This document shows, piece after piece, positions 1,782 to 9,288 of a DNA stretch of 64,000 nt (position 1 is the first letter of the stretch; every line of letters starts with the position of its first letter). The notes under the pieces are model-generated. The model ran no database searches, had not been told where the DNA came from, and was given only the letters and a program-made list of their open reading frames with translations. Origin of the DNA: a virus (taxonomy: Duplodnaviria > Caudoviricetes); IMG/VR virus record IMGVR_UViG_3300044518_000037, positions 11,808 through 75,807 of that record; one strand, given 5' to 3'. The position numbers and the translations under genes were made by a program.

Positions 1782-2498
1782 ATGGCTCAGCGTGTGCAGG
1801 TCATTCTTGAGGACGACCTCGACGGCGGAACGGCAGACGAGACCGTAACATTCGCCCTCGACGGCGTGGCCTACGAGATCGACCTGAAATCAGGGAACGC
1901 GGAAAAGCTGCGCGCCCTGTTCACCCCCTACGTTGAGAAGGGGCGCAGGACCACAAAGCGGGGCGCATCGTCGCAGCGAACTCCTCGATCGTCGGCGCCG
2001 GCGCGGAACGGTCACGCCAAGGTCGTGCGCGCCTGGGCGAAGGCCGAGGGTCTCTCCGTTGAAGGCCGTGGCCGCGTTCCTGCTCCGATTGTGGAGGCGT
2101 TCGAGGCTGACCAGCTCGGCGATAGGTCACTCCTGGAGAATCTCAAGAAGATGCCCCTCTACTCGGACGCGGCGCTGGAGGCCGGCCAGGACGAGGAGGA
2201 CCCTGGGGCGCCCACGGCCCAGCCCGAGGACGGCGCTGCGCGGCCTGCGACCGTGGAGATCACGGAGGACGACCGGATCAAGGCTGCACAGGTTTTCAGC
2301 AGCAACCCGGCTTCCGAGGCTGGGATCGGGCACCTGCGGGCCGCCCGCGACAACGGGGGTGTGTTCGTGCGGAAGGGCTCGGCGGCTCCCGGGATTATCA
2401 AGGGGCTCTCGGCCCGGGAGCTCGGTAGCGAGGACCGGCAGCGCATCACGGGGGTCGGCTACGCCTACCTGGAACTGGTTGAGCAGGCTGCTGGCTGA
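1782..2498 (+). CDS. lsr2: Lsr2-family nucleoid-associated protein with about 120-aa C-terminal extension
   Basis: MAQRVQVILEDDLDGGTADETVTFALDGVAYEIDL dimerisation motif; VRAWAKAEGLSVEGRGRVPA DNA-binding motif. Confidence 0.93.
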   Translation: MAQRVQVILEDDLDGGTADETVTFALDGVAYEIDLKSGNAEKLRALFTPYVEKGRRTTKRGASSQRTPRSSAPARNGHAKVVRAWAKAEGLSVEGRGRVPAPIVEAFEADQLGDRSLLENLKKMPLYSDAALEAGQDEEDPGAPTAQPEDGAARPATVEITEDDRIKAAQVFSSNPASEAGIGHLRAARDNGGVFVRKGSAAPGIIKGLSARELGSEDRQRITGVGYAYLELVEQAAG

Positions 2499-2519: not shown

Positions 2520-3119
2520 TCAGATAGCTGGCGGGGCCGAAGGCTTGTACTTGTCGCGGAGCTCCAGGGCGGCCAAGCCAACTCCGGTGATCTCGCGCCC
2601 CTCGGCGAGGCCCTTGCGCCGCAGACTCCTGAGGCTCGCCTCTGTGCCGGGCGACGGGTCAGGGGGGAACTGTCCGCCGTTCTTCGTTGCCAGGACCAAG
2701 TTCTCGAAGGCAGTGTCCGAAAGGGTCTTGTAGTACAGCCGCGCGGTGTCGCGGTCCTGCTGAGTGATCTGTTGCTGATCACTCTGGTCGTCGGGTAGTT
2801 CACCGCTCAGGAACTCATCCTCGAACTGTCGGGATACCTCCGACGGAACTCTGCCGTACTTGGGTACCTGAATCCCTTTGTCCCGGGCCCACCTGCGAAT
2901 AGTTTTCGCGTCCACCTGCGTGGTCTGGTGCGTAATTCCGGCGGCAGGTGTGATATCCCTGGCGGCTTGCAGGAAAGGCTCTAGCGCCTCCAGGAGCCGT
3001 TCCAGCCCTACCTTGTTCTCAGGATCCAGATCGATTTCGTAGAGCCTGCCGGCGAGTGGGAACTCAACTCGTTCGGCGCCGAGCTTGCCGTTCAGGTCGT
3101 CAATCAAGGCAATCGCCAT
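2520..3119 (-). CDS. Second, divergent Lsr2-like protein with a homologous C-terminal extension (alternative start 3155)
   Basis: LIDDLNG...VEFPLAGRLYEIDL and IRRWARDKGIQVPKYGRVPS match the Lsr2 motifs. Confidence 0.85.
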   Translation of the reverse strand: MAIALIDDLNGKLGAERVEFPLAGRLYEIDLDPENKVGLERLLEALEPFLQAARDITPAAGITHQTTQVDAKTIRRWARDKGIQVPKYGRVPSEVSRQFEDEFLSGELPDDQSDQQQITQQDRDTARLYYKTLSDTAFENLVLATKNGGQFPPDPSPGTEASLRSLRRKGLAEGREITGVGLAALELRDKYKPSAPPAI

Positions 3120-3475
3120 GAGCTTCTCCGATCCGGGTCCGTCGGTTCCAGGCATGGTAGCCGAGCGCGTGGCGCGCCTTCGGGCATCCCTACTGCTCGG
3201 TACGTCGAACGGCCCTGCTCTGAAGCAGGGAGGCGAGCATGGCATGGACGCGCCTTATTGGCATGGACACACTGTGGCTTCAAGTAGTGAGCAGTCGTTA
3301 CCGCAGGTGAAAGGGGGTGTGCAGCGTCCGAGGCTCGCAGTAGGCTCGTCATCTCTGAGCCAATCGGGTGAATCGAGACAGACCCTAAGTTGGTTATCGT
3401 TTTTTGACCTTTCAGACCAGTTTGGGATGTATGGTCCTCGCAGCAACGATCTTCCAGCTAGGGGGAACGAGACCT

Positions 3476-3865: not shown

Positions 3866-4797
3866 GTCGGTACATGATCCCCACGTGCAAGTTCTGCCGC
3901 ACCCAGGGCAACCCGAGGTACCCTGCCACGTCCCACCACACGTTCTCGCACAACGGCGGACCGCATAAGTCCGTTGATCTTTGTGAGCCGCACGAGGGGT
4001 TCGTCATCGGGTTGATCATGGGCCTCCTCGAAGACGAAGAGGATGAGCCTGAGATCCTCAATCCTGCTGGCCCGGTGCCTCTGGTCATTCGGGAGGCGAT
4101 GAAGTCGCCTACTGCCGCCGTGGCCGCTAGGCCGCCCGAGCCGCAGCCGACCCTCCCGCTCGAAGAGCTCGCGGCCCCGACTGAAGATGCGCCGGCGGAC
4201 TCGGGCCGCCTCCACATCCTCTGCCGGGACTGTGATCCGGAAGCGAAGGTCGAATACGCGCGCCGAAACGATCACGCGCGCAGGCACAACAAGCCTGCCG
4301 CGCAGATCCTCTGGACGCTTCCGGACGGCAGACCGCTGCCGTTCCCGTGCACGGAGCACGCGGAGTGCGAGGAAGTCGGCTTCGGCTACTCGACGGAGCG
4401 CGGACTGGACAACCACCTCAAGGGCTTCGCGCCACCAGCCGGCGGAAAGCCGAAGCTGGGCAAGAAGAGCCCTGTGGTGGGCCACAAGAAGAAGGACGTC
4501 CCCCAGGTCGTCTGCCCCGAGGAACATCGGAAGGGCGCGCCGGAGCCGTATTGGGTCGATGTGGCCAACAGGCAGGGGCACGCTCAGGGCACCCACGGAG
4601 TCGACGCACCGTACATCGCCTGGGGAAACCCGGACGCTGTCGACCTTCGGTTTCCCTGTACGGAGCACAAGTCCTGCGTGGACGCTGGCGGCTACGCGTT
4701 TATCTCCGCGCAGTCTCTCCTGGTGCACGGCAATAAAAGTCGCCACTGGGAAAAGGTGGAACCGATCCAAGAGCCGGCAGCCGCAGAAGCTGCCTGA
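3862..4797 (+). CDS. Cys/His-rich multi-zinc-finger protein with an internal duplication, 311 aa
   Basis: CKFC, CRDC...H...H and two FPCTEHxxC...H units; TTG start overlaps the upstream stop. Confidence 0.8.
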   Translation: MSRYMIPTCKFCRTQGNPRYPATSHHTFSHNGGPHKSVDLCEPHEGFVIGLIMGLLEDEEDEPEILNPAGPVPLVIREAMKSPTAAVAARPPEPQPTLPLEELAAPTEDAPADSGRLHILCRDCDPEAKVEYARRNDHARRHNKPAAQILWTLPDGRPLPFPCTEHAECEEVGFGYSTERGLDNHLKGFAPPAGGKPKLGKKSPVVGHKKKDVPQVVCPEEHRKGAPEPYWVDVANRQGHAQGTHGVDAPYIAWGNPDAVDLRFPCTEHKSCVDAGGYAFISAQSLLVHGNKSRHWEKVEPIQEPAAAEAA

Positions 4798-4803
4798 AGC
4801 ACG

Positions 4804-4843
4804 AGAGCCCCAGCTGGTAGCCGCTCACCAGCCGGGGCTCTTG
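4804..4843 (+). terminator. Probable terminator hairpin
   Basis: GAGCCCCAGCTGGT...ACCAGCCGGGGCTC followed by TT. Confidence 0.6.
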
Positions 4844-4908
4844 CGCACACCTGCACTAGCTCGCTGATTGCGAGCTGTTGCAGCAAGGGACCCCAAAGTC
4901 ACCGTCTG

Positions 4909-4924
4909 GGTGGGCGTGTTTAAG
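4909..4924 (+). repeat. Left direct repeat (attL-like core) GGTGGGCGTGTTTAAG
   Basis: 15/16 identical to 8087-8102. Confidence 0.7.
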
Positions 4925-4993
4925 GTGTAGGAATTCCGCCGATGGACCGTTCGGGCGGTATGAATTATCTGATCTGTCATTGCTTGTGGCGGT

Positions 4994-5230
4994 ATGTCTA
5001 GTTTGGGCGCTATGGGAAACATAGCTGACCAGGCAGCAGCCGGTTCCTTCACGCAAGCATCGCGCCCACCTGACACACCCCGTGCCGATGGAGAGTCACC
5101 TCGGCCTGACCGACGTGACGTCGAGATGATCTGGACCGTCGTAGATGAACCGTCGACCCCCAGGCACCGGCGACTGCTAGAGATCCTCTTCGCGACCGGT
5201 GGAGAGGCGTACGATGAAGCGATCACCTGA
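4994..5230 (+). CDS. Small protein upstream of the recombinase (start 4994 or 5012)
   Basis: ORF with C-terminal amphipathic RHRRLLEILF helix; co-oriented with the recombinase. Confidence 0.55.
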   Translation: MSSLGAMGNIADQAAAGSFTQASRPPDTPRADGESPRPDRRDVEMIWTVVDEPSTPRHRRLLEILFATGGEAYDEAIT

Positions 5231-5290
5231 GTAACACTCAAGTGCCCTTGCTGGGCGCGTGGTTGTGACCAGGCCGCAGAACGTACAGAT

Positions 5291-5332
5291 GACCCCCGGG
5301 GCGACGCTTGGCCGGCTCCCGTCCCGGGGGTC
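5291..5332 (+). promoter_or_regulatory. Strong hairpin in the recombinase leader (possible attenuator)
   Basis: GACCCCCGGG...CCCGGGGGTC 10-bp perfect stem, 23 bp before the ATG. Confidence 0.45.
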
Positions 5333-5355
5333 TCGCCAGTCGTTAGGGGACTGAC

Positions 5356-7347
5356 ATGCGCAATGGAACCTTGCCAAGGTCTCGGAAGGCAAGCGGACCG
5401 GTCCGTGTGGCCATATACGTCCGGGTTTCCACCCGTGAGCAGGTCAAGGGGTACGGCCTGAAGGTCCAAGAGGACGGCTGCATAGCCTGGCTCAACGCCA
5501 TGCTCCGTGGGAACTTCGTGATCGTCGATGTCTACAAGGACGCCGGTGTCTCCGGAAAGAAGAGCTCCCGACCCCACTTCGACCGTCTCAACCGGGACGT
5601 GAAGGACCGGAAGATCGACATGGTCATCGCCCACAAGCTGGACCGCGTCGGGCGAACCATGCGAGACATCCAGCGCTGGGTCTGGAACCTCCTCGACGAG
5701 AAGATCCGTTTCGTCGCGGTGAGCCAGGGCCTCGACTCCGACACCGAGACCGGTCAGCTTCAGATCAGCCTCTTCGCCTGGCTGGCCGAGATCGAGCACG
5801 GGCTCATCCTCAGCCGGACTATGGACGGCCGGGAGAACAAACTGGCGGCCGGCGGCTGGCCAAGCGGGCTCGTCCCCTACGGGTACGCGATCGAGGGTAA
5901 GGGCAAAGAAGCTGTCGTCGTCCTGTGCGAGGACGAAGTCAGCGTAATCGAGTACGCCGTCCACGTTGCCGTCGACGAGAAGCACAACTGGGAAGACGTG
6001 GCCCGTCTACTCAACGAAAAGAAGATGCGCAGGCGCTTCGGCAAACCCTGGACCGGCAACATGGTCCGCCAGATTCTCGGCCACACGGCCATCCTGGAAG
6101 GCAAGGCGTACTTCCGAAAGACCGGCCCTGGAACCAGGACAAAGCTCGACGAGGACGGCCTCCCACTCTACGGGGACACCGTAGCCATCGAGCTCCCCCG
6201 AATCCTCAGCGAGGAGCGGGCAGCAGCGCTGGCGAAGATCATCAAAGACAGGGCCAGGTTCCACAGCCCCGACGCCAAATACCCGCTCAGCCGCCGGATC
6301 AACGGATCCTGCGGCGAGGTCTACGTCGGAAGCGGTGTCGAGGACCACCGAATGTACCGATGCAACGGAAACCACCGGGAAACACCGTGCGGCGACGCCT
6401 ACCTGGACGCTGACGCCCTCGAAGCCGCAGTCTGGGACGAACTTGCCGACTTCCTAACCGACCCCTCCCGCCTCCAAGCTCTCGCGGAGCAATACATCGA
6501 GTCCCTCCCTGGCGCTCAAAGCGACCACGAGGAGCGACTGGCTTCGCTGAAGGACCAGGTGGACGAGAAAGAGTCCGCACTCGCCACCGCGATCATTACG
6601 TGCGCCACCCTGAAGCTGGATGAGGAAGCAGCCAAGAAGGCGACAAGCCAGCTTGACACGGACCTGGCCGTACTCCGCGCGACTCTCGCCGAGGCAGAGG
6701 AGTGGCAGGAAGAGCACGCAGCCGCCCAAGCCCAGGCACGCGACTTGATCACGCTGATCGAGAAGGCCCGTGGCAAGCTGGCCTCACTTAGCCTGGGCAC
6801 TCAGGGGGAGATCTTCGAGATGCTCGACATCCAAGTCCACCCCGAATCACACGGCTTCCAGAAGCGCTCCGGAATCAGGTGCTCAGTACGGGCCTGGCAC
6901 GTGGAGAAGGAGGTCCTCGTGCCAGCTGCGCCCAATGATGAGGACTGGGCGGCGGTCATGGAGATTCTGAGCCGCCGTTTCCCGGAAATCGCGCGCTCCA
7001 GGTCGGACCCTCGCAAGCTCTTCTGCGGCATGCTGCACCGCCTGCGCACGGGTGAGACATGGGAGGCGATGGACAAGCACTGGGGGTCCACGGCAAATCT
7101 CAAGAGGTATCAGAGCCTCTGGTTCAAGTCTGGGGCCTGGAAGGAGATGCTCCTCGTGCTGCCCAAGGACGGGGCGAAGCCTGTCTTCCAGCCCCGAGTG
7201 ATCCCCAAGCTGCGGGTTACCGGTGTGGTCAGGAGGTCGGTCTATGACCCCAGCGCTGCCGTAGCCGAACCTTCGGATGGTCCTACCGATTCCTCGGCAA
7301 CCGTGAGGTCAGGAGAAGGTTTGGCTTTCGTTCTCGCAGCTGCCTGA
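5356..7347 (+). CDS. Large serine recombinase (resolvase, recombinase, Zn-ribbon, coiled coil) with an IS5/DUF4096-like HTH near the C-terminus
   Basis: YVRVST with catalytic Ser, AGVSG, KLDRVGR, GGWPSGLVPYGY, YRC...C; WAAVMEIL...RKLFCGMLHRLRTGETWEAM...WG...W..SGAW. Confidence 0.93.
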   Translation: MRNGTLPRSRKASGPVRVAIYVRVSTREQVKGYGLKVQEDGCIAWLNAMLRGNFVIVDVYKDAGVSGKKSSRPHFDRLNRDVKDRKIDMVIAHKLDRVGRTMRDIQRWVWNLLDEKIRFVAVSQGLDSDTETGQLQISLFAWLAEIEHGLILSRTMDGRENKLAAGGWPSGLVPYGYAIEGKGKEAVVVLCEDEVSVIEYAVHVAVDEKHNWEDVARLLNEKKMRRRFGKPWTGNMVRQILGHTAILEGKAYFRKTGPGTRTKLDEDGLPLYGDTVAIELPRILSEERAAALAKIIKDRARFHSPDAKYPLSRRINGSCGEVYVGSGVEDHRMYRCNGNHRETPCGDAYLDADALEAAVWDELADFLTDPSRLQALAEQYIESLPGAQSDHEERLASLKDQVDEKESALATAIITCATLKLDEEAAKKATSQLDTDLAVLRATLAEAEEWQEEHAAAQAQARDLITLIEKARGKLASLSLGTQGEIFEMLDIQVHPESHGFQKRSGIRCSVRAWHVEKEVLVPAAPNDEDWAAVMEILSRRFPEIARSRSDPRKLFCGMLHRLRTGETWEAMDKHWGSTANLKRYQSLWFKSGAWKEMLLVLPKDGAKPVFQPRVIPKLRVTGVVRRSVYDPSAAVAEPSDGPTDSSATVRSGEGLAFVLAAA

Positions 7348-7365
7348 CCAGCGCAGATGCCACCC

Positions 7366-7403
7366 CCGAACCCCCTGAGCCGAGACTGGGCCAGGGGGTT
7401 CGG
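7366..7403 (+). terminator. Hairpin between the recombinase and the resolvase-like gene
   Basis: CCGAACCCCCTG / CAGGGGGTTCGG perfect 12-bp stem. Confidence 0.65.
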
Positions 7404-7471
7404 CGTTCCCCACCCACCTGTCAGCCCGTAGCCATAAGCTGCTGGCGAAGACCCAGAGAGGACAACCGATA

Positions 7472-8020
7472 GTGGAACTGAAGCGAGCAGCGGTGTACGT
7501 ACGGCAGCGCGGCGAGCAAGGCGAGCACGGGCTTGACGCCCAGCGAGCGGCCTGTGAGCGGTGGGCCGCCGAACGACGGATGCAGATCGTCGCGGAGTAC
7601 GAGGGCGAAACAGCTAACAGGGTGAGCGCTGAGCTCCTCGCAGACCTCGGGGCCGGTAAGTTCGACGTCCTCATCGCGGATCTCGGGCCGGAGACGTTCA
7701 CGCGCGATGCCAGTAGGTATCAGGCGTTGCTCGCGGCGGCAGCCGAGGCGGGCGTCGAGGTGTGCACTCTCCCCGCTCCGAACCTGCTGATCAAGATTGC
7801 CCAGCGCATCATTGAAGGGCGTGACCGCAACGCCGGACAGGAGCAATCCGGGGACGCGGACCGTGAAGATGTGTACCTCTCGGCGCTCTGGGATGTACTT
7901 GCCGTAGCCTTCGGGTCCAAGACGCCGCTGGGTCACCTCGAAGAGGAAGCGCTGGAAAAGCCTCTTGAAGCCCTGGTCGAGCAGTTCATCGAGTCCGCGC
8001 GGAACACCCAGAACATGTGA
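7472..8020 (+). CDS. Resolvase-like (serine recombinase N-terminal domain) protein lacking the catalytic serine
   Basis: AAVYVRQRGEQGEHGLDAQRAACERWA...IVAEY...GKFDVLI; YVRQ replaces YxRVS. Confidence 0.8.
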   Translation: MELKRAAVYVRQRGEQGEHGLDAQRAACERWAAERRMQIVAEYEGETANRVSAELLADLGAGKFDVLIADLGPETFTRDASRYQALLAAAAEAGVEVCTLPAPNLLIKIAQRIIEGRDRNAGQEQSGDADREDVYLSALWDVLAVAFGSKTPLGHLEEEALEKPLEALVEQFIESARNTQNM

Positions 8021-8086
8021 TGGCCCTGCGGCGACTGCCCGAGCTGACATCGACTCCGGTGAGTGACATCGGTTCGGTCTCCCGCC

Positions 8087-8102
8087 GGTGAGCGTGTTTA
8101 AG
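8087..8102 (+). repeat. Right direct repeat (attR-like core) GGTGAGCGTGTTTAAG
   Basis: 15/16 identical to 4909-4924. Confidence 0.7.
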
Positions 8103-8112
8103 ATGCCCCACT

Positions 8113-8135
8113 TTGTCACTCACGCTCAGTGACAA
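8113..8135. promoter_or_regulatory. Perfect inverted repeat TTGTCACT-N7-AGTGACAA (operator-like)
   Basis: 8-bp dyad upstream of the gene at 8215. Confidence 0.5.
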
Positions 8136-8214
8136 TCTCAACCGTCAGGCCTCCGACGCCCTGCGCCGCTACGGTGTGGGGCGTTGGCCGCTCCAACCAG
8201 TGAGGAAATGCTGT

Positions 8215-8493
8215 ATGACCAACGTCATCGCGAAGTTGAAGCAGGACCCGGACTCCGGGGCGCTGACCATCACCGAGGACATCAAGGTCTCCGCGAGCAT
8301 CACCGACGGAGTGAACCGCATCGGGGTGTGGAAGGGCGACCTCTTCGCCGTCTGGGAGGTCGAGGGCCGACTGAACCCGGCGCAGGCCGAGACCGAGGCG
8401 CACAGCCGGCAGCCCGACGCCATCTACGTGTTCGCGGAGGGCAACGTTCTCTACGAGCTGGATGACGAGTACCTGGCGACCGTGAAGAGCTGA
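8215..8493 (+). CDS. Hypothetical protein, 92 aa
   Basis: ATG after GAGGA RBS within ORF 8113-8493. Confidence 0.75.
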   Translation: MTNVIAKLKQDPDSGALTITEDIKVSASITDGVNRIGVWKGDLFAVWEVEGRLNPAQAETEAHSRQPDAIYVFAEGNVLYELDDEYLATVKS

Positions 8494-8519
8494 ACAGAGA
8501 AAGTGGTGCGAAGAAGTCC

Positions 8520-8705
8520 ATGAACAAACAGGAGCTCACACCGCCCGCATCCGGTTGGAGCAGCAACACCCATCGTTACTACGCCAGCATCGCGGCCAAG
8601 CGCATCGCCTGGTGGAACCGCAACCAGGCGCAGCCTGAATCGGTTCCCGCTACCGGCGGCATCTCCCAGGGCGGACCAGCGGGCCAAGTAACGCCTCCTT
8701 GCTGA
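8520..8705 (+). CDS. Hypothetical protein, 61 aa
   Basis: Short co-oriented ORF followed by a hairpin. Confidence 0.5.
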   Translation: MNKQELTPPASGWSSNTHRYYASIAAKRIAWWNRNQAQPESVPATGGISQGGPAGQVTPPC

Positions 8706-8823
8706 GATCCGCAATGCCGCTAGTCCCCGCTTCCTCCCGAGGCGGGGGCTTTCGCCTATCTCCACCACGACGGCCGGTCCCGGTCGCTAGGCTTGGGGCC
8801 GGTCATACCAGCTAGGAGCTCTT

Positions 8824-9288
8824 GTGCCTACTCCCACCGAAACCCTTTGCTGTGCCCTCTGCCAGCAGTCGGCGACCCACACCGTTACCTGGACCGATCG
8901 CGGCTCCCTTACCCCCGCGCAGCGCTCCCTCCCTTACTGTGCTGGCCACGGCCAGCACGCCGCGAGAACACGCGGCGGCAGTCTCACCGCTGGCGTAGAC
9001 CACTCTCGTACCCCCGTCTACGTCATGGTCCATCGCTACGAGCCGACCCCTAGTCCTCTCGGTCACCAGCACACACTGATCACTGAACGGCGCATCGACG
9101 TCAAGACCGACACGATCCCCGTCGCCGCTTACCGACCGGGCCGCGCCGTCGACCCGGACGTTACCGCCTGGATCACCAAGTGCGCCGACGCCGCGCTCGC
9201 GCAGCGGGGCCGCACCCGGGACCTGCGTGACCGCTACACCGCTATCGTCAGCGTCAACAACCGCCCTCTCGCATGGGCTGACGTGTGA
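8824..9288 (+). CDS. Hypothetical protein with an N-terminal CxxC...CxxH motif
   Basis: AGGAG RBS, GTG start. Confidence 0.75.
   Translation: MPTPTETLCCALCQQSATHTVTWTDRGSLTPAQRSLPYCAGHGQHAARTRGGSLTAGVDHSRTPVYVMVHRYEPTPSPLGHQHTLITERRIDVKTDTIPVAAYRPGRAVDPDVTAWITKCADAALAQRGRTRDLRDRYTAIVSVNNRPLAWADV

What the first reader, a model, noticed from the sequence alone, without database searches (positions are those of the whole stretch)
7472..8020. Catalytically dead resolvase-domain protein directly behind the recombinase
Seen: AAVYVRQRGEQGEHGLDAQRAAC aligns with the neighbouring LSR's VAIYVRVSTREQVKGYGLKVQEDGC, but the nucleophilic Ser is absent. The DR..R motif is eroded (ADLGPETFTRD), and there is no recombinase or Zn-ribbon domain. 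The ORF is intact with an RBS. Known: serine recombinases synapse through this domain. Inference: a pseudo-enzyme partner that enters the tetramer as an inhibitor or directionality switch, which would differ from the small RDFs that bind the coiled coil.
Basis: partly seen in the sequence, partly recalled or inferred. Interest (0 to 1): 0.72.

Follow-up and report, generated by a model that had tools for sequence, protein, structure and literature searches.

The report
Serine-less mini-resolvase beside phage integrase
Right behind its integrase gene, a soil actinomycete phage encodes a small protein with the fold of the integrase's DNA-cutting domain but without the cutting serine; it belongs to a rare family kept under selection at the integration end of related prophages, so it is probably a non-cutting regulator, though binding to the integrase is untested.

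Summary
ORF 7472-8020 (+) is a real 182-aa gene that passes Pfam's Resolvase threshold. Its model matches serine-recombinase catalytic domains best (TP901-1 integrase, Z 12.6). The nucleophile Ser is replaced by Arg, DR..R reads ET..R, and there is no recombinase, zinc-ribbon or other DNA-binding domain. The protein is acidic (pI 4.7).

It is not a decaying copy. Its one close homologue, in a Saccharothrix prophage (62% identity), gives dN/dS 0.42 (bootstrap 0.26-0.62). About eight more distant Streptomyces relatives also lack the Ser and form one clan, apart from all sampled integrase domains, including the neighbours.

Linkage to the integration module recurs. In Saccharothrix the gene again follows the integrase, although that integrase is unrelated (21% identity). 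In a ~105-kb Streptomyces prophage it is second to last before attR, with the integrase at attL, so both flank attP in the circular phage. Other relatives sit at or near prophage ends.

Against a specific partnership: phages with the same integrase type lack the gene, it did not co-vary with the integrase, and it may belong to the Lsr2 early operon instead. Binding could not be tested because the complex predictor did not complete.

Earlier notes of this scan report similar serine-less partners on other, unrelated DNA.

The parts
7472..8020 (+). Serine-less mini-resolvase gene (182 aa): catalytic-domain fold (res 4-101), helix E (103-121), acidic helical tail (122-182)
7456..7462 (+). Shine-Dalgarno GAGAGGA, 9 nt before the GTG start; conserved in the Saccharothrix orthologue
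7413..7471 (+). Upstream stretch where DNA homology to the Saccharothrix prophage begins (about 59 bp before the start); likely the gene's own promoter and leader (inferred)
7366..7403 (+). Perfect 12-bp-stem hairpin just after the LSR stop codon; terminator-like, so it probably separates the LSR transcript from the small gene (inferred)
   Evidence: I21
5356..7347 (+). Neighbouring large serine recombinase: Resolvase + Recombinase + Zn ribbon + coiled coil + C-terminal DUF4096 HTH. The public gene call is 646 aa, so the true start may be later.
8051..8185 (+). Non-coding element right after the stop codon, about 90% identical to Saccharothrix (the coding DNA is about 73%). It holds three hairpins and the right copy of a 19-nt repeat. 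It travels with the gene; function unknown.

Best explanation
The gene encodes a pseudo-enzyme: a stand-alone serine-recombinase catalytic domain plus helix E. It has lost the nucleophile and two of the three DR..R residues, and it has no DNA-binding domain. It is an old, selected family resident in the integration region of large (~100 kb) actinomycete prophages. The most likely mode of action is protein-protein contact with the phage's own large serine recombinase, modulating integration or excision. It could do this by pairing through the helix-E/catalytic-domain surfaces to form inactive or altered oligomers (inhibitor), or by acting as a directionality cofactor. Shown here: the fold, the loss of catalytic residues, purifying selection, family-wide loss of Ser, and repeated linkage to LSR and attP. 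Inferred: that it binds the LSR, where it binds, and in which direction it pushes the reaction.
For: (1) The fold is a serine-recombinase catalytic domain: Pfam above threshold, Foldseek top 9 hits, and 3bvp/6dgc at Z 12.6. (2) There is no DNA-binding domain and the pI is 4.7, so contact with a protein is the most plausible activity left. (3) Purifying selection: dN 0.24, dS 0.57, omega 0.42 with a 95% bootstrap range of 0.26-0.62. This is similar to other early genes of the same phage pair (0.39-0.58). Helix E is the best-kept part (omega 0.24). (4) Relatives at 27-40% identity lack the Ser (it is R, R, P, A, N, A, A, A at that column; only one tandem copy keeps it) and form one clan (UFboot 91, SH-aLRT 81, 88% of bootstrap trees) apart from all LSR domains. 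So the loss is old and the gene was kept afterwards. (5) Linkage: in the window it directly follows the LSR. In Saccharothrix it directly follows a different LSR at attL. In Streptomyces genome G001 it lies about 0.7 kb from attR, and the LSR abuts attL of the same ~105-kb prophage, which splits an AMP-binding gene. In the circular phage the two converge on attP. That LSR is the only other resolvase-domain gene found in the G001 genome. (6) G001 and the window phage share the LSR type (31% identity), a DpdA-like gene (39%), a HAD-like gene, a 168-aa gene and Lsr2, so the region is syntenic. (7) Known RDFs of serine integrases have no common fold and are scavenged proteins (bioRxiv 10.1101/2024.08.21.608926). 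Non-cutting resolvase subunits are known to regulate cutting ones through catalytic-domain contacts in Tn3 and Sin (PMC9943657).
Against: There is no evidence of binding. The small protein is 62% identical between the two close phages, while their adjacent LSRs are 21% identical, so it did not co-evolve with one LSR. It has its own upstream region and a hairpin separates it from the LSR. Phages with the same LSR-DUF4096 type lack it: metagenome phage L110 (50% identical LSR) and Streptomyces phage Animus. In four Streptomyces loci it lies about 2 kb downstream of Lsr2 in a long co-directional operon with AcrVA2-like genes, so a prophage-end position may reflect that operon rather than the integrase. 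In one genome it lies about 4 kb from the element's end. Omega of 0.42 is only moderate constraint. Only one close homologue exists, so the selection estimate rests on a single pair.
Confidence: 0.4

Rival explanations
1. It is a domesticated resolvase-fold protein whose function has nothing to do with the integrase. It would be an accessory gene at the tip of the Lsr2 early operon, near the prophage end, for example acting on a host protein or a defence system. Its nearness to the LSR follows only from both lying next to attP.
For: In L067, L072, L073 and L074 it lies about 2 kb downstream of an Lsr2 gene, with AcrVA2-like genes in three of them and in L068. It kept its place and 62% identity while the LSR beside it was exchanged. 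It has its own upstream region, and it travels with a strongly conserved downstream non-coding element. Phages with the same LSR type do without it. An earlier scan note describes a dead resolvase-fold family tied to a redox operon rather than an integrase (e1-1443903, unchecked).
Against: No other function is suggested by any domain, motif or neighbour. The part that is best conserved is helix E, the oligomerisation element of serine recombinases. In all three genomes where the integrase could be located it is an LSR within 0.1-0.8 kb in the phage form.
Confidence: 0.3
2. It is a decoy aimed at other elements. Expressed from the prophage, it would poison the serine integrases of incoming phages or resident competitors by forming dead hetero-oligomers through the conserved catalytic domain. 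This would be a form of superinfection exclusion.
For: It sits at or near the prophage end in most integrated copies, where lysogen-expressed accessory genes commonly lie (the general rule is from my own knowledge). It is indifferent to which LSR sits beside it. Its profile scores higher on the ~490-aa Streptomyces LSR clade (44-66 bits) than on its own neighbour (26.6 bits).
Against: There is no expression data (no RNA run was listed, which is not evidence either way). Without a DNA-binding domain it would have to compete in solution. The family is very rare.
Confidence: 0.12
3. It is a decaying remnant of a duplicated integrase gene with no function.
For: Catalytic residues are lost, the DNA-binding domains are gone, branches in the tree are long, and the family is rare.
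Against: The frame is intact with a conserved RBS in two phages that differ at dS 0.57, and omega 0.42 never reached 1 in 500 bootstraps. Intact Ser-less relatives at 27-40% identity form one clan that is not sister to the adjacent LSRs. No LSR remnants lie beside the relatives.
Confidence: 0.08
4. It is still an active recombinase that uses another nucleophile.
For: Arg11 (equivalent to Arg8 of gamma-delta resolvase) and Arg78 (equivalent to Arg71) are kept.
Against: No Ser, Thr, Tyr or Cys is conserved in the nucleophile loop across the family. It has no DNA-binding domain and is acidic.
Confidence: 0.02

Closest known systems
N-terminal catalytic domain of large serine recombinases (TP901-1 integrase 3bvp, Bxb1 9iu2, phiC31 4bqq/9rah, TnpX 2mhc) and of IS607-type TnpA (6dgc)
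   Same: Same fold and topology (b1-aA-b2-aB-b3-aC-aD-b4-aE), with Z 11-12.6 and rmsd 2.0-2.4 A over 93-96 residues. Pfam Resolvase scores above threshold.
   Different: The nucleophile Ser is Arg, and the Asp-Arg of DR..R is Glu-Thr. There is no recombinase, zinc-ribbon, coiled-coil or HTH domain. It is a separate gene of 182 aa with an acidic helical tail.
Recombination directionality factors of serine integrases (phiC31/TG1 gp3, Bxb1 gp47, SPbeta SprB)
   Same: They are small phage-encoded proteins without a common fold that change what the integrase does by binding it. phiC31-family RDFs also stay conserved while integrases diverge (PMC11530663 title and abstract; bioRxiv 10.1101/2024.08.21.608926).
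   Different: Known RDFs bind the DBD2/coiled-coil junction, far from the catalytic domain, and none is reported to be a resolvase-fold protein (literature searches). RDF activity of this protein is untested.
Regulatory (non-cutting) resolvase subunits at the accessory sites of Tn3, gamma-delta and Sin res
   Same: Resolvase catalytic domains that do not cut control those that do, through a catalytic-domain surface called the R interface (PMC9943657).
   Different: There the regulatory subunits are the same active protein bound to DNA through its HTH. Here it is a separate, dead, DNA-binding-less gene product.
Engineered nucleophile mutants (resolvase S10A, phiC31 Int S12A) and truncated-transposase inhibitors such as Tn5 Inh (from my own knowledge; S12A complexes are seen in PDB titles)
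   Same: Catalytically dead subunits that can still join the oligomer; Tn5 Inh is a natural truncated inhibitor of its own enzyme.
   Different: Those keep their DNA-binding parts (the S-to-A mutants) or come from the same gene (Inh). This is an independent, old gene family.

Membership tests
Serine recombinase superfamily, catalytic-domain fold (Pfam PF00239 Resolvase) | Sequence match above Pfam's gathering score | tested here: met
   28.3 bits against a cut-off of 23.3, residues 6-100 on profile positions 1-99 of 145
Serine recombinase superfamily, catalytic-domain fold (Pfam PF00239 Resolvase) | Mixed alpha/beta catalytic-domain fold followed by long helix E | tested here: met
   AF2 model with residues 1-100 at high pLDDT; 3bvp Z 12.6, rmsd 2.0 A over 95 residues; the top hits are serine recombinases
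Active serine recombinase (enzyme) | Nucleophilic Ser in the Y-x-R-x-S motif | tested here: not met
   The motif reads Y-V-R-Q-R; the Ser column holds Arg13. The column is also non-Ser in 10 of 11 small relatives.
Active serine recombinase (enzyme) | D-R-x-x-R active-site motif | tested here: not met
   It reads E74-T75-F-T-R78; only the last Arg is kept
Active serine recombinase (enzyme) | A DNA-binding domain (HTH, or recombinase domain plus zinc ribbon) | tested here: not met
   There is no Pfam hit beyond Resolvase on the whole protein or on the C-terminal 73 residues at E up to 10. The tail is acidic, pI 4.1.
Large serine recombinase / serine integrase | Recombinase domain PF07508, zinc ribbon PF13408 and coiled coil after the catalytic domain | tested here: not met
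   Absent here; present in the neighbour at 5356-7347
Recombination directionality factor of a serine integrase | Binds the integrase (known cases: the DBD2/coiled-coil junction) | not tested
Recombination directionality factor of a serine integrase | Switches the integrase to attL x attR recombination | not testable with these tools
   Needs in vitro or in vivo recombination assays
Unnamed family of Ser-less mini-resolvases of actinomycete prophages (defined here) | 110-190 aa, catalytic domain plus helix E only, non-Ser at the nucleophile, conserved Q24/C28/W31/R78/G94, one clan in the tree | tested here: met

The most novel reading that the evidence does not exclude
The protein is a natural capping or poison subunit. 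It pairs with the integrase's catalytic domain through helix E and so controls synapsis or strand exchange at the active centre. This would be a way of regulating large serine integrases that differs in kind from all known directionality factors, which act at the DBD2/coiled-coil hotspot. It may have arisen repeatedly, given the scan's unchecked notes of similar pairs in unrelated lineages.
Probability: 0.2. Interest if true: 0.8.

Novelty: new variant of a known kind. Interest (0 to 1): 0.55.

Why it matters
Serine integrases are workhorses of genome engineering, and their direction is controlled by cofactors that are hard to find because they share no fold. A selected, catalytically dead copy of the integrase's own catalytic domain, kept in the integration region of phages, would be a new type of control element and a ready-made genetic off-switch or modulator. 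It would be a natural counterpart of the S-to-A mutants used in the laboratory. Even if it does not touch the integrase, it documents an unnamed pseudo-enzyme family derived from a mobile-element enzyme.

Tried and rejected
1. Complex prediction of LSR (A8) with the small protein (A4): requested 14 times (include all tries). The machine did not complete, so there is no result of any kind.

2. Idea that the C-terminal tail copies the LSR's zinc-ribbon/coiled-coil junction (BLASTP E 0.038): not reproduced with the Saccharothrix homologue against either LSR nor by Pfam on the tail alone. Rejected as chance.

3. Idea that the small genes in Streptomyces are N-terminal stumps of broken LSRs: tblastn found no LSR remains beside them, and no tRNA genes either.

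4. The repeat is real: 2 copies against 0.03 expected. But Saccharothrix keeps only the right copy together with the small gene while its LSR is unrelated. A shared promoter-like element fits better; this remains unproven.

5. Rfam on 4700-9000: no match.

6. Sequenced phages (INPHARED): no homologue of the window protein or of P0009 other than ordinary integrases. IMG/VR: only the Saccharothrix prophage.

7. No RNA holder listed among public runs; the DNA is held by two soil metagenome runs that may be its source.

8. ESM Atlas on the window protein was busy. For P0002 it only returned resolvase-domain clusters at lead-level scores.

9. PDB sequence search gave nothing significant.

10. PHROGs on ten neighbouring early genes: nine (eight downstream of the small gene, one upstream of the LSR) gave no match, so no candidate RDF could be named; the tenth (1782-2495) matched Lsr2-like families.

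11. No att core could be read from the G001 junctions.

Full report
**The object**

The window is bases 11808-75807 of a 75.8-kb IMG/VR virus record, CheckV 77% complete. The DNA is held by two soil metagenome runs. Overall GC is 66%.

ORF 7472-8020 (+) has a GTG start and encodes 182 aa. It is preceded by GAGAGGA nine bases upstream. It follows the 663-aa large serine recombinase (LSR) at 5356-7347 after a 125-bp gap. That gap contains a perfect 12-bp-stem hairpin at 7366-7403.

Pfam finds Resolvase (PF00239) at 28.3 bits (cut-off 23.3), covering residues 6-100 against profile positions 1-99 of 145, and nothing else. The LSR has Resolvase, Recombinase, Zn_ribbon_recom and a C-terminal DUF4096 HTH. 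PHROGs gives the integrase family phrog_95 for both.

**Catalytic residues**

In MAFFT alignments with the window's LSR and the Saccharothrix LSR:
- Y-V-R-Q-R-G aligns with Y-V-R-V-S-T, so the nucleophile Ser is Arg13.
- G-P-E-T-F-T-R aligns with L-D-R-V-G-R, so Asp becomes Glu74, the first Arg becomes Thr75 and the second Arg is kept as Arg78.

The one refinement is that the last Arg of DR..R and the Arg before the Ser position are retained.

**Fold**

An AlphaFold2 model from a 14-row alignment has mean pLDDT 73, with residues 1-100 mostly above 90. Its order of elements is b1, aA, b2, aB, b3, aC, aD, b4 and a long helix at 103-121, followed by two low-confidence helices at 129-146 and 158-181.

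The first nine Foldseek PDB hits are all serine-recombinase catalytic domains. VIA-align gives:

| Structure | Z | rmsd / residues |
|---|---|---|
| TP901-1 integrase catalytic domain (3bvp) | 12.6 | 2.0 A / 95 |
| IS607-type TnpA (6dgc) | 12.6 | – |
| 3guv | 11.4 | – |
| Bxb1 (9iu2) | 11.0 | – |

Unrelated alpha/beta folds follow at 9.8 and below.

The protein is acidic (pI 4.7; tail pI 4.1) and has no recognisable DNA-binding part.

**Is it a relic?**

In 5.8 billion clustered proteins only one close homologue exists: P0002, 179 aa, 62% identical, from Saccharothrix sp. ST-888. An exhaustive HMMER scan of 1.84 billion representatives adds eight more at E below 0.001, all 110-220 aa. Those with names are Streptomyces 'recombinase family protein' entries.

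Between the window gene and its Saccharothrix orthologue, dN is 0.24, dS is 0.57 and omega is 0.42. The 95% bootstrap range is 0.26-0.62, and omega never reached 1 in 500 resamples. By region:

| Region | omega | identity |
|---|---|---|
| Catalytic domain | 0.41 | – |
| Helix E | 0.24 | 81% |
| Tail | 0.48 | – |

Other genes of the same phage pair give 0.15-0.32 for the large conserved genes on the minus strand (e.g. the DpdA-like and HNH genes; functions mostly unknown) and 0.39-0.58 for small early genes. Off-frame ORFs over the same DNA give 0.57-0.79.

At the nucleophile column the relatives carry R, R, P, A, N, A, A, A, and A and N in two outliers. Only the second gene of a tandem pair in L067 keeps a Ser.

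An IQ-TREE of 49 catalytic domains puts the nine small proteins on one side of a branch (UFboot 91, SH-aLRT 81, 88% of bootstrap trees). They are apart from all LSR domains, including the neighbours. Branches are long, so long-branch attraction cannot be excluded. The family profile also scores higher on a ~490-aa Streptomyces LSR clade (44-66 bits) than on the adjacent LSR (26.6 bits).

So the gene is not a recent, decaying duplicate of its neighbour. It is a member of an old, maintained, catalytically dead family.

**Context**

Saccharothrix:
- The order is an ADP-ribosylglycohydrolase gene fragment, a 537-aa LSR, the small gene, small rightward genes, and then a leftward block starting with a 493-aa gene, as in the window.
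- That LSR is only 21% identical to the window's.
- DNA homology between the two phages starts 59 bp upstream of the small gene's start codon. It runs through the gene into a ~135-bp non-coding stretch that is about 90% identical, more than the coding DNA.
- The integrase was therefore exchanged while the small gene and its flanks stayed.

Streptomyces genome G001 (home of relative P0006):
- Only two resolvase-domain genes are found in the whole genome: P0006 and an LSR.
- That LSR has Resolvase, zinc ribbon and DUF4096, and is 31% identical to the window's LSR over 673 residues. Its open frame runs into an AMP-binding_C segment.
- The 5' part of that split AMP-binding gene lies about 0.7 kb after P0006, roughly 105 kb away.
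- This defines a ~105-kb prophage with the LSR at attL and the small gene second to last before attR. In the circular phage the two genes converge on attP.
- The prophage shares the DpdA-like gene (39%), a HAD-like gene, a 168-aa gene and Lsr2 with the window phage.

Other relatives:
- They are the last or next-to-last gene of runs of co-directional orphan genes with Lsr2 and AcrVA2-like genes. Ordinary host genes follow.
- In one complete genome the gene lies about 4 kb from the end of the element.
- No LSR remains lie beside them.

**Evidence that cuts the other way**

- The nearest LSR relative found (50% identity, metagenome phage L110) and Streptomyces phage Animus (31%) have no such gene nearby.
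- In 60 IMG/VR loci with serine recombinases, the only dead mini-resolvase is the Saccharothrix one. Eight other loci with two resolvase-domain genes have two Ser-bearing ones.
- The family is very rare. About 800 Streptomycetaceae species genomes were searched in two samples of about 400, and only the genome from which the search was centred carries it.
- In four Streptomyces loci the gene lies about 2 kb downstream of Lsr2 in one long operon, so its position may be set by that operon.
- No neighbouring early gene has any PHROG assignment.

**Mechanism**

What remains of a serine recombinase in this protein is the part that makes dimers and tetramers, and helix E is its most conserved segment. 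Without a DNA-binding domain and with an acidic surface, action through a protein partner is the most economical reading. The phage's own LSR is the obvious partner, and in G001 it is the only serine recombinase available.

I therefore favour a non-catalytic modulator of the LSR, at confidence 0.4. Whether it inhibits or sets direction is open.

Published RDFs are structurally unrelated scavenged proteins that bind the DBD2/coiled-coil junction (bioRxiv 10.1101/2024.08.21.608926). A resolvase-fold factor acting at the catalytic domain would be new. Tn3 and Sin resolvases show that non-cutting subunits can regulate cutting ones through catalytic-domain contacts (PMC9943657). Two literature searches found no description of a natural Ser-less resolvase-domain partner of an LSR.

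The main rival, at 0.3, is an unrelated accessory function at the prophage end. A decoy against foreign integrases (0.12), a relic (0.08) and residual activity (0.02) follow.

**Limits**

The decisive computation open to me was a controlled complex prediction. It could not be run because the service did not complete. The selection estimate rests on one pair of sequences. The integrated or free state of the window's own phage, and its attP, were not determined.

Earlier notes of this scan describe dead resolvase-domain genes next to LSRs in unrelated lineages. They share no sequence words with this family, and I did not check them. They suggest the arrangement may be recurrent, but they do not count as evidence here.

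Noticed in passing
window 8051-8185: A non-coding stretch just after the small gene is about 90% identical to the Saccharothrix prophage, more than the flanking coding DNA (about 73%). It can form three hairpins. It has no Rfam match. It implies that the listed TTG start of ORF 8113 is wrong; an ATG near 8212 is more likely.
   Followed up: partly
window 4909-4927 and 8087-8105: A 19-nt direct repeat (GGTGRGCGTGTTTAAGRTG) occurs as the only two copies in 64 kb (0.03 expected) and brackets orf78, the LSR and the small gene. Saccharothrix has only the right copy. It contains a TAAGAT/TAAGGT box resembling a Streptomyces -10 element, so it may be a repeated promoter rather than a cassette end.
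   Followed up: partly
window 5356-7347 (DUF4096 at residues 528-598): The LSR carries a C-terminal IS4/IS5-type HTH (DUF4096). All 13 close relatives are from Streptomyces and carry it too, as do integrases of Streptomyces phages Animus, Janus, Diane and Sentinel (31-32% identity over the full length).
   Followed up: partly
G001:C2 about 642,900-748,400 (loci L077, L072): A ~105-kb prophage is inserted in an AMP-binding (acyl-CoA synthetase-like) gene. The LSR's open frame runs on into the displaced AMP-binding_C segment, giving a 778-aa frame.
   Followed up: partly
L067:6001-7100: Two small resolvase-domain genes lie in tandem at a contig end in Streptomyces sp. UNOC14_S4. The first (P0005) lacks the Ser. 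The second (187 aa) keeps a K-A-S motif but has PETY-DR in place of DR..R.
   Followed up: no
many Streptomyces genomes, e.g. L108 (G262:C115): A separate, widespread set of 137-200-aa frames matches only positions 22-111 of the family profile (36-45 bits). It lacks strand b1 and the Ser loop altogether and may be another resolvase-derived family.
   Followed up: no
L009, L010, L015, L017, L058 and other IMG/VR loci: Pairs of full-length, Ser-bearing LSR genes lie in tandem (about 555-605 aa each) on viral contigs, recalling two-recombinase systems.
   Followed up: no
window 1782-2498 (+) and 2520-3245 (-): Two convergent Lsr2-like genes, both longer than usual (238 and 241 aa), lie upstream of the integration region. 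Lsr2 genes accompany the small gene in four Streptomyces loci.
   Followed up: no
It directly flanks the LSR in G001.
   Followed up: no
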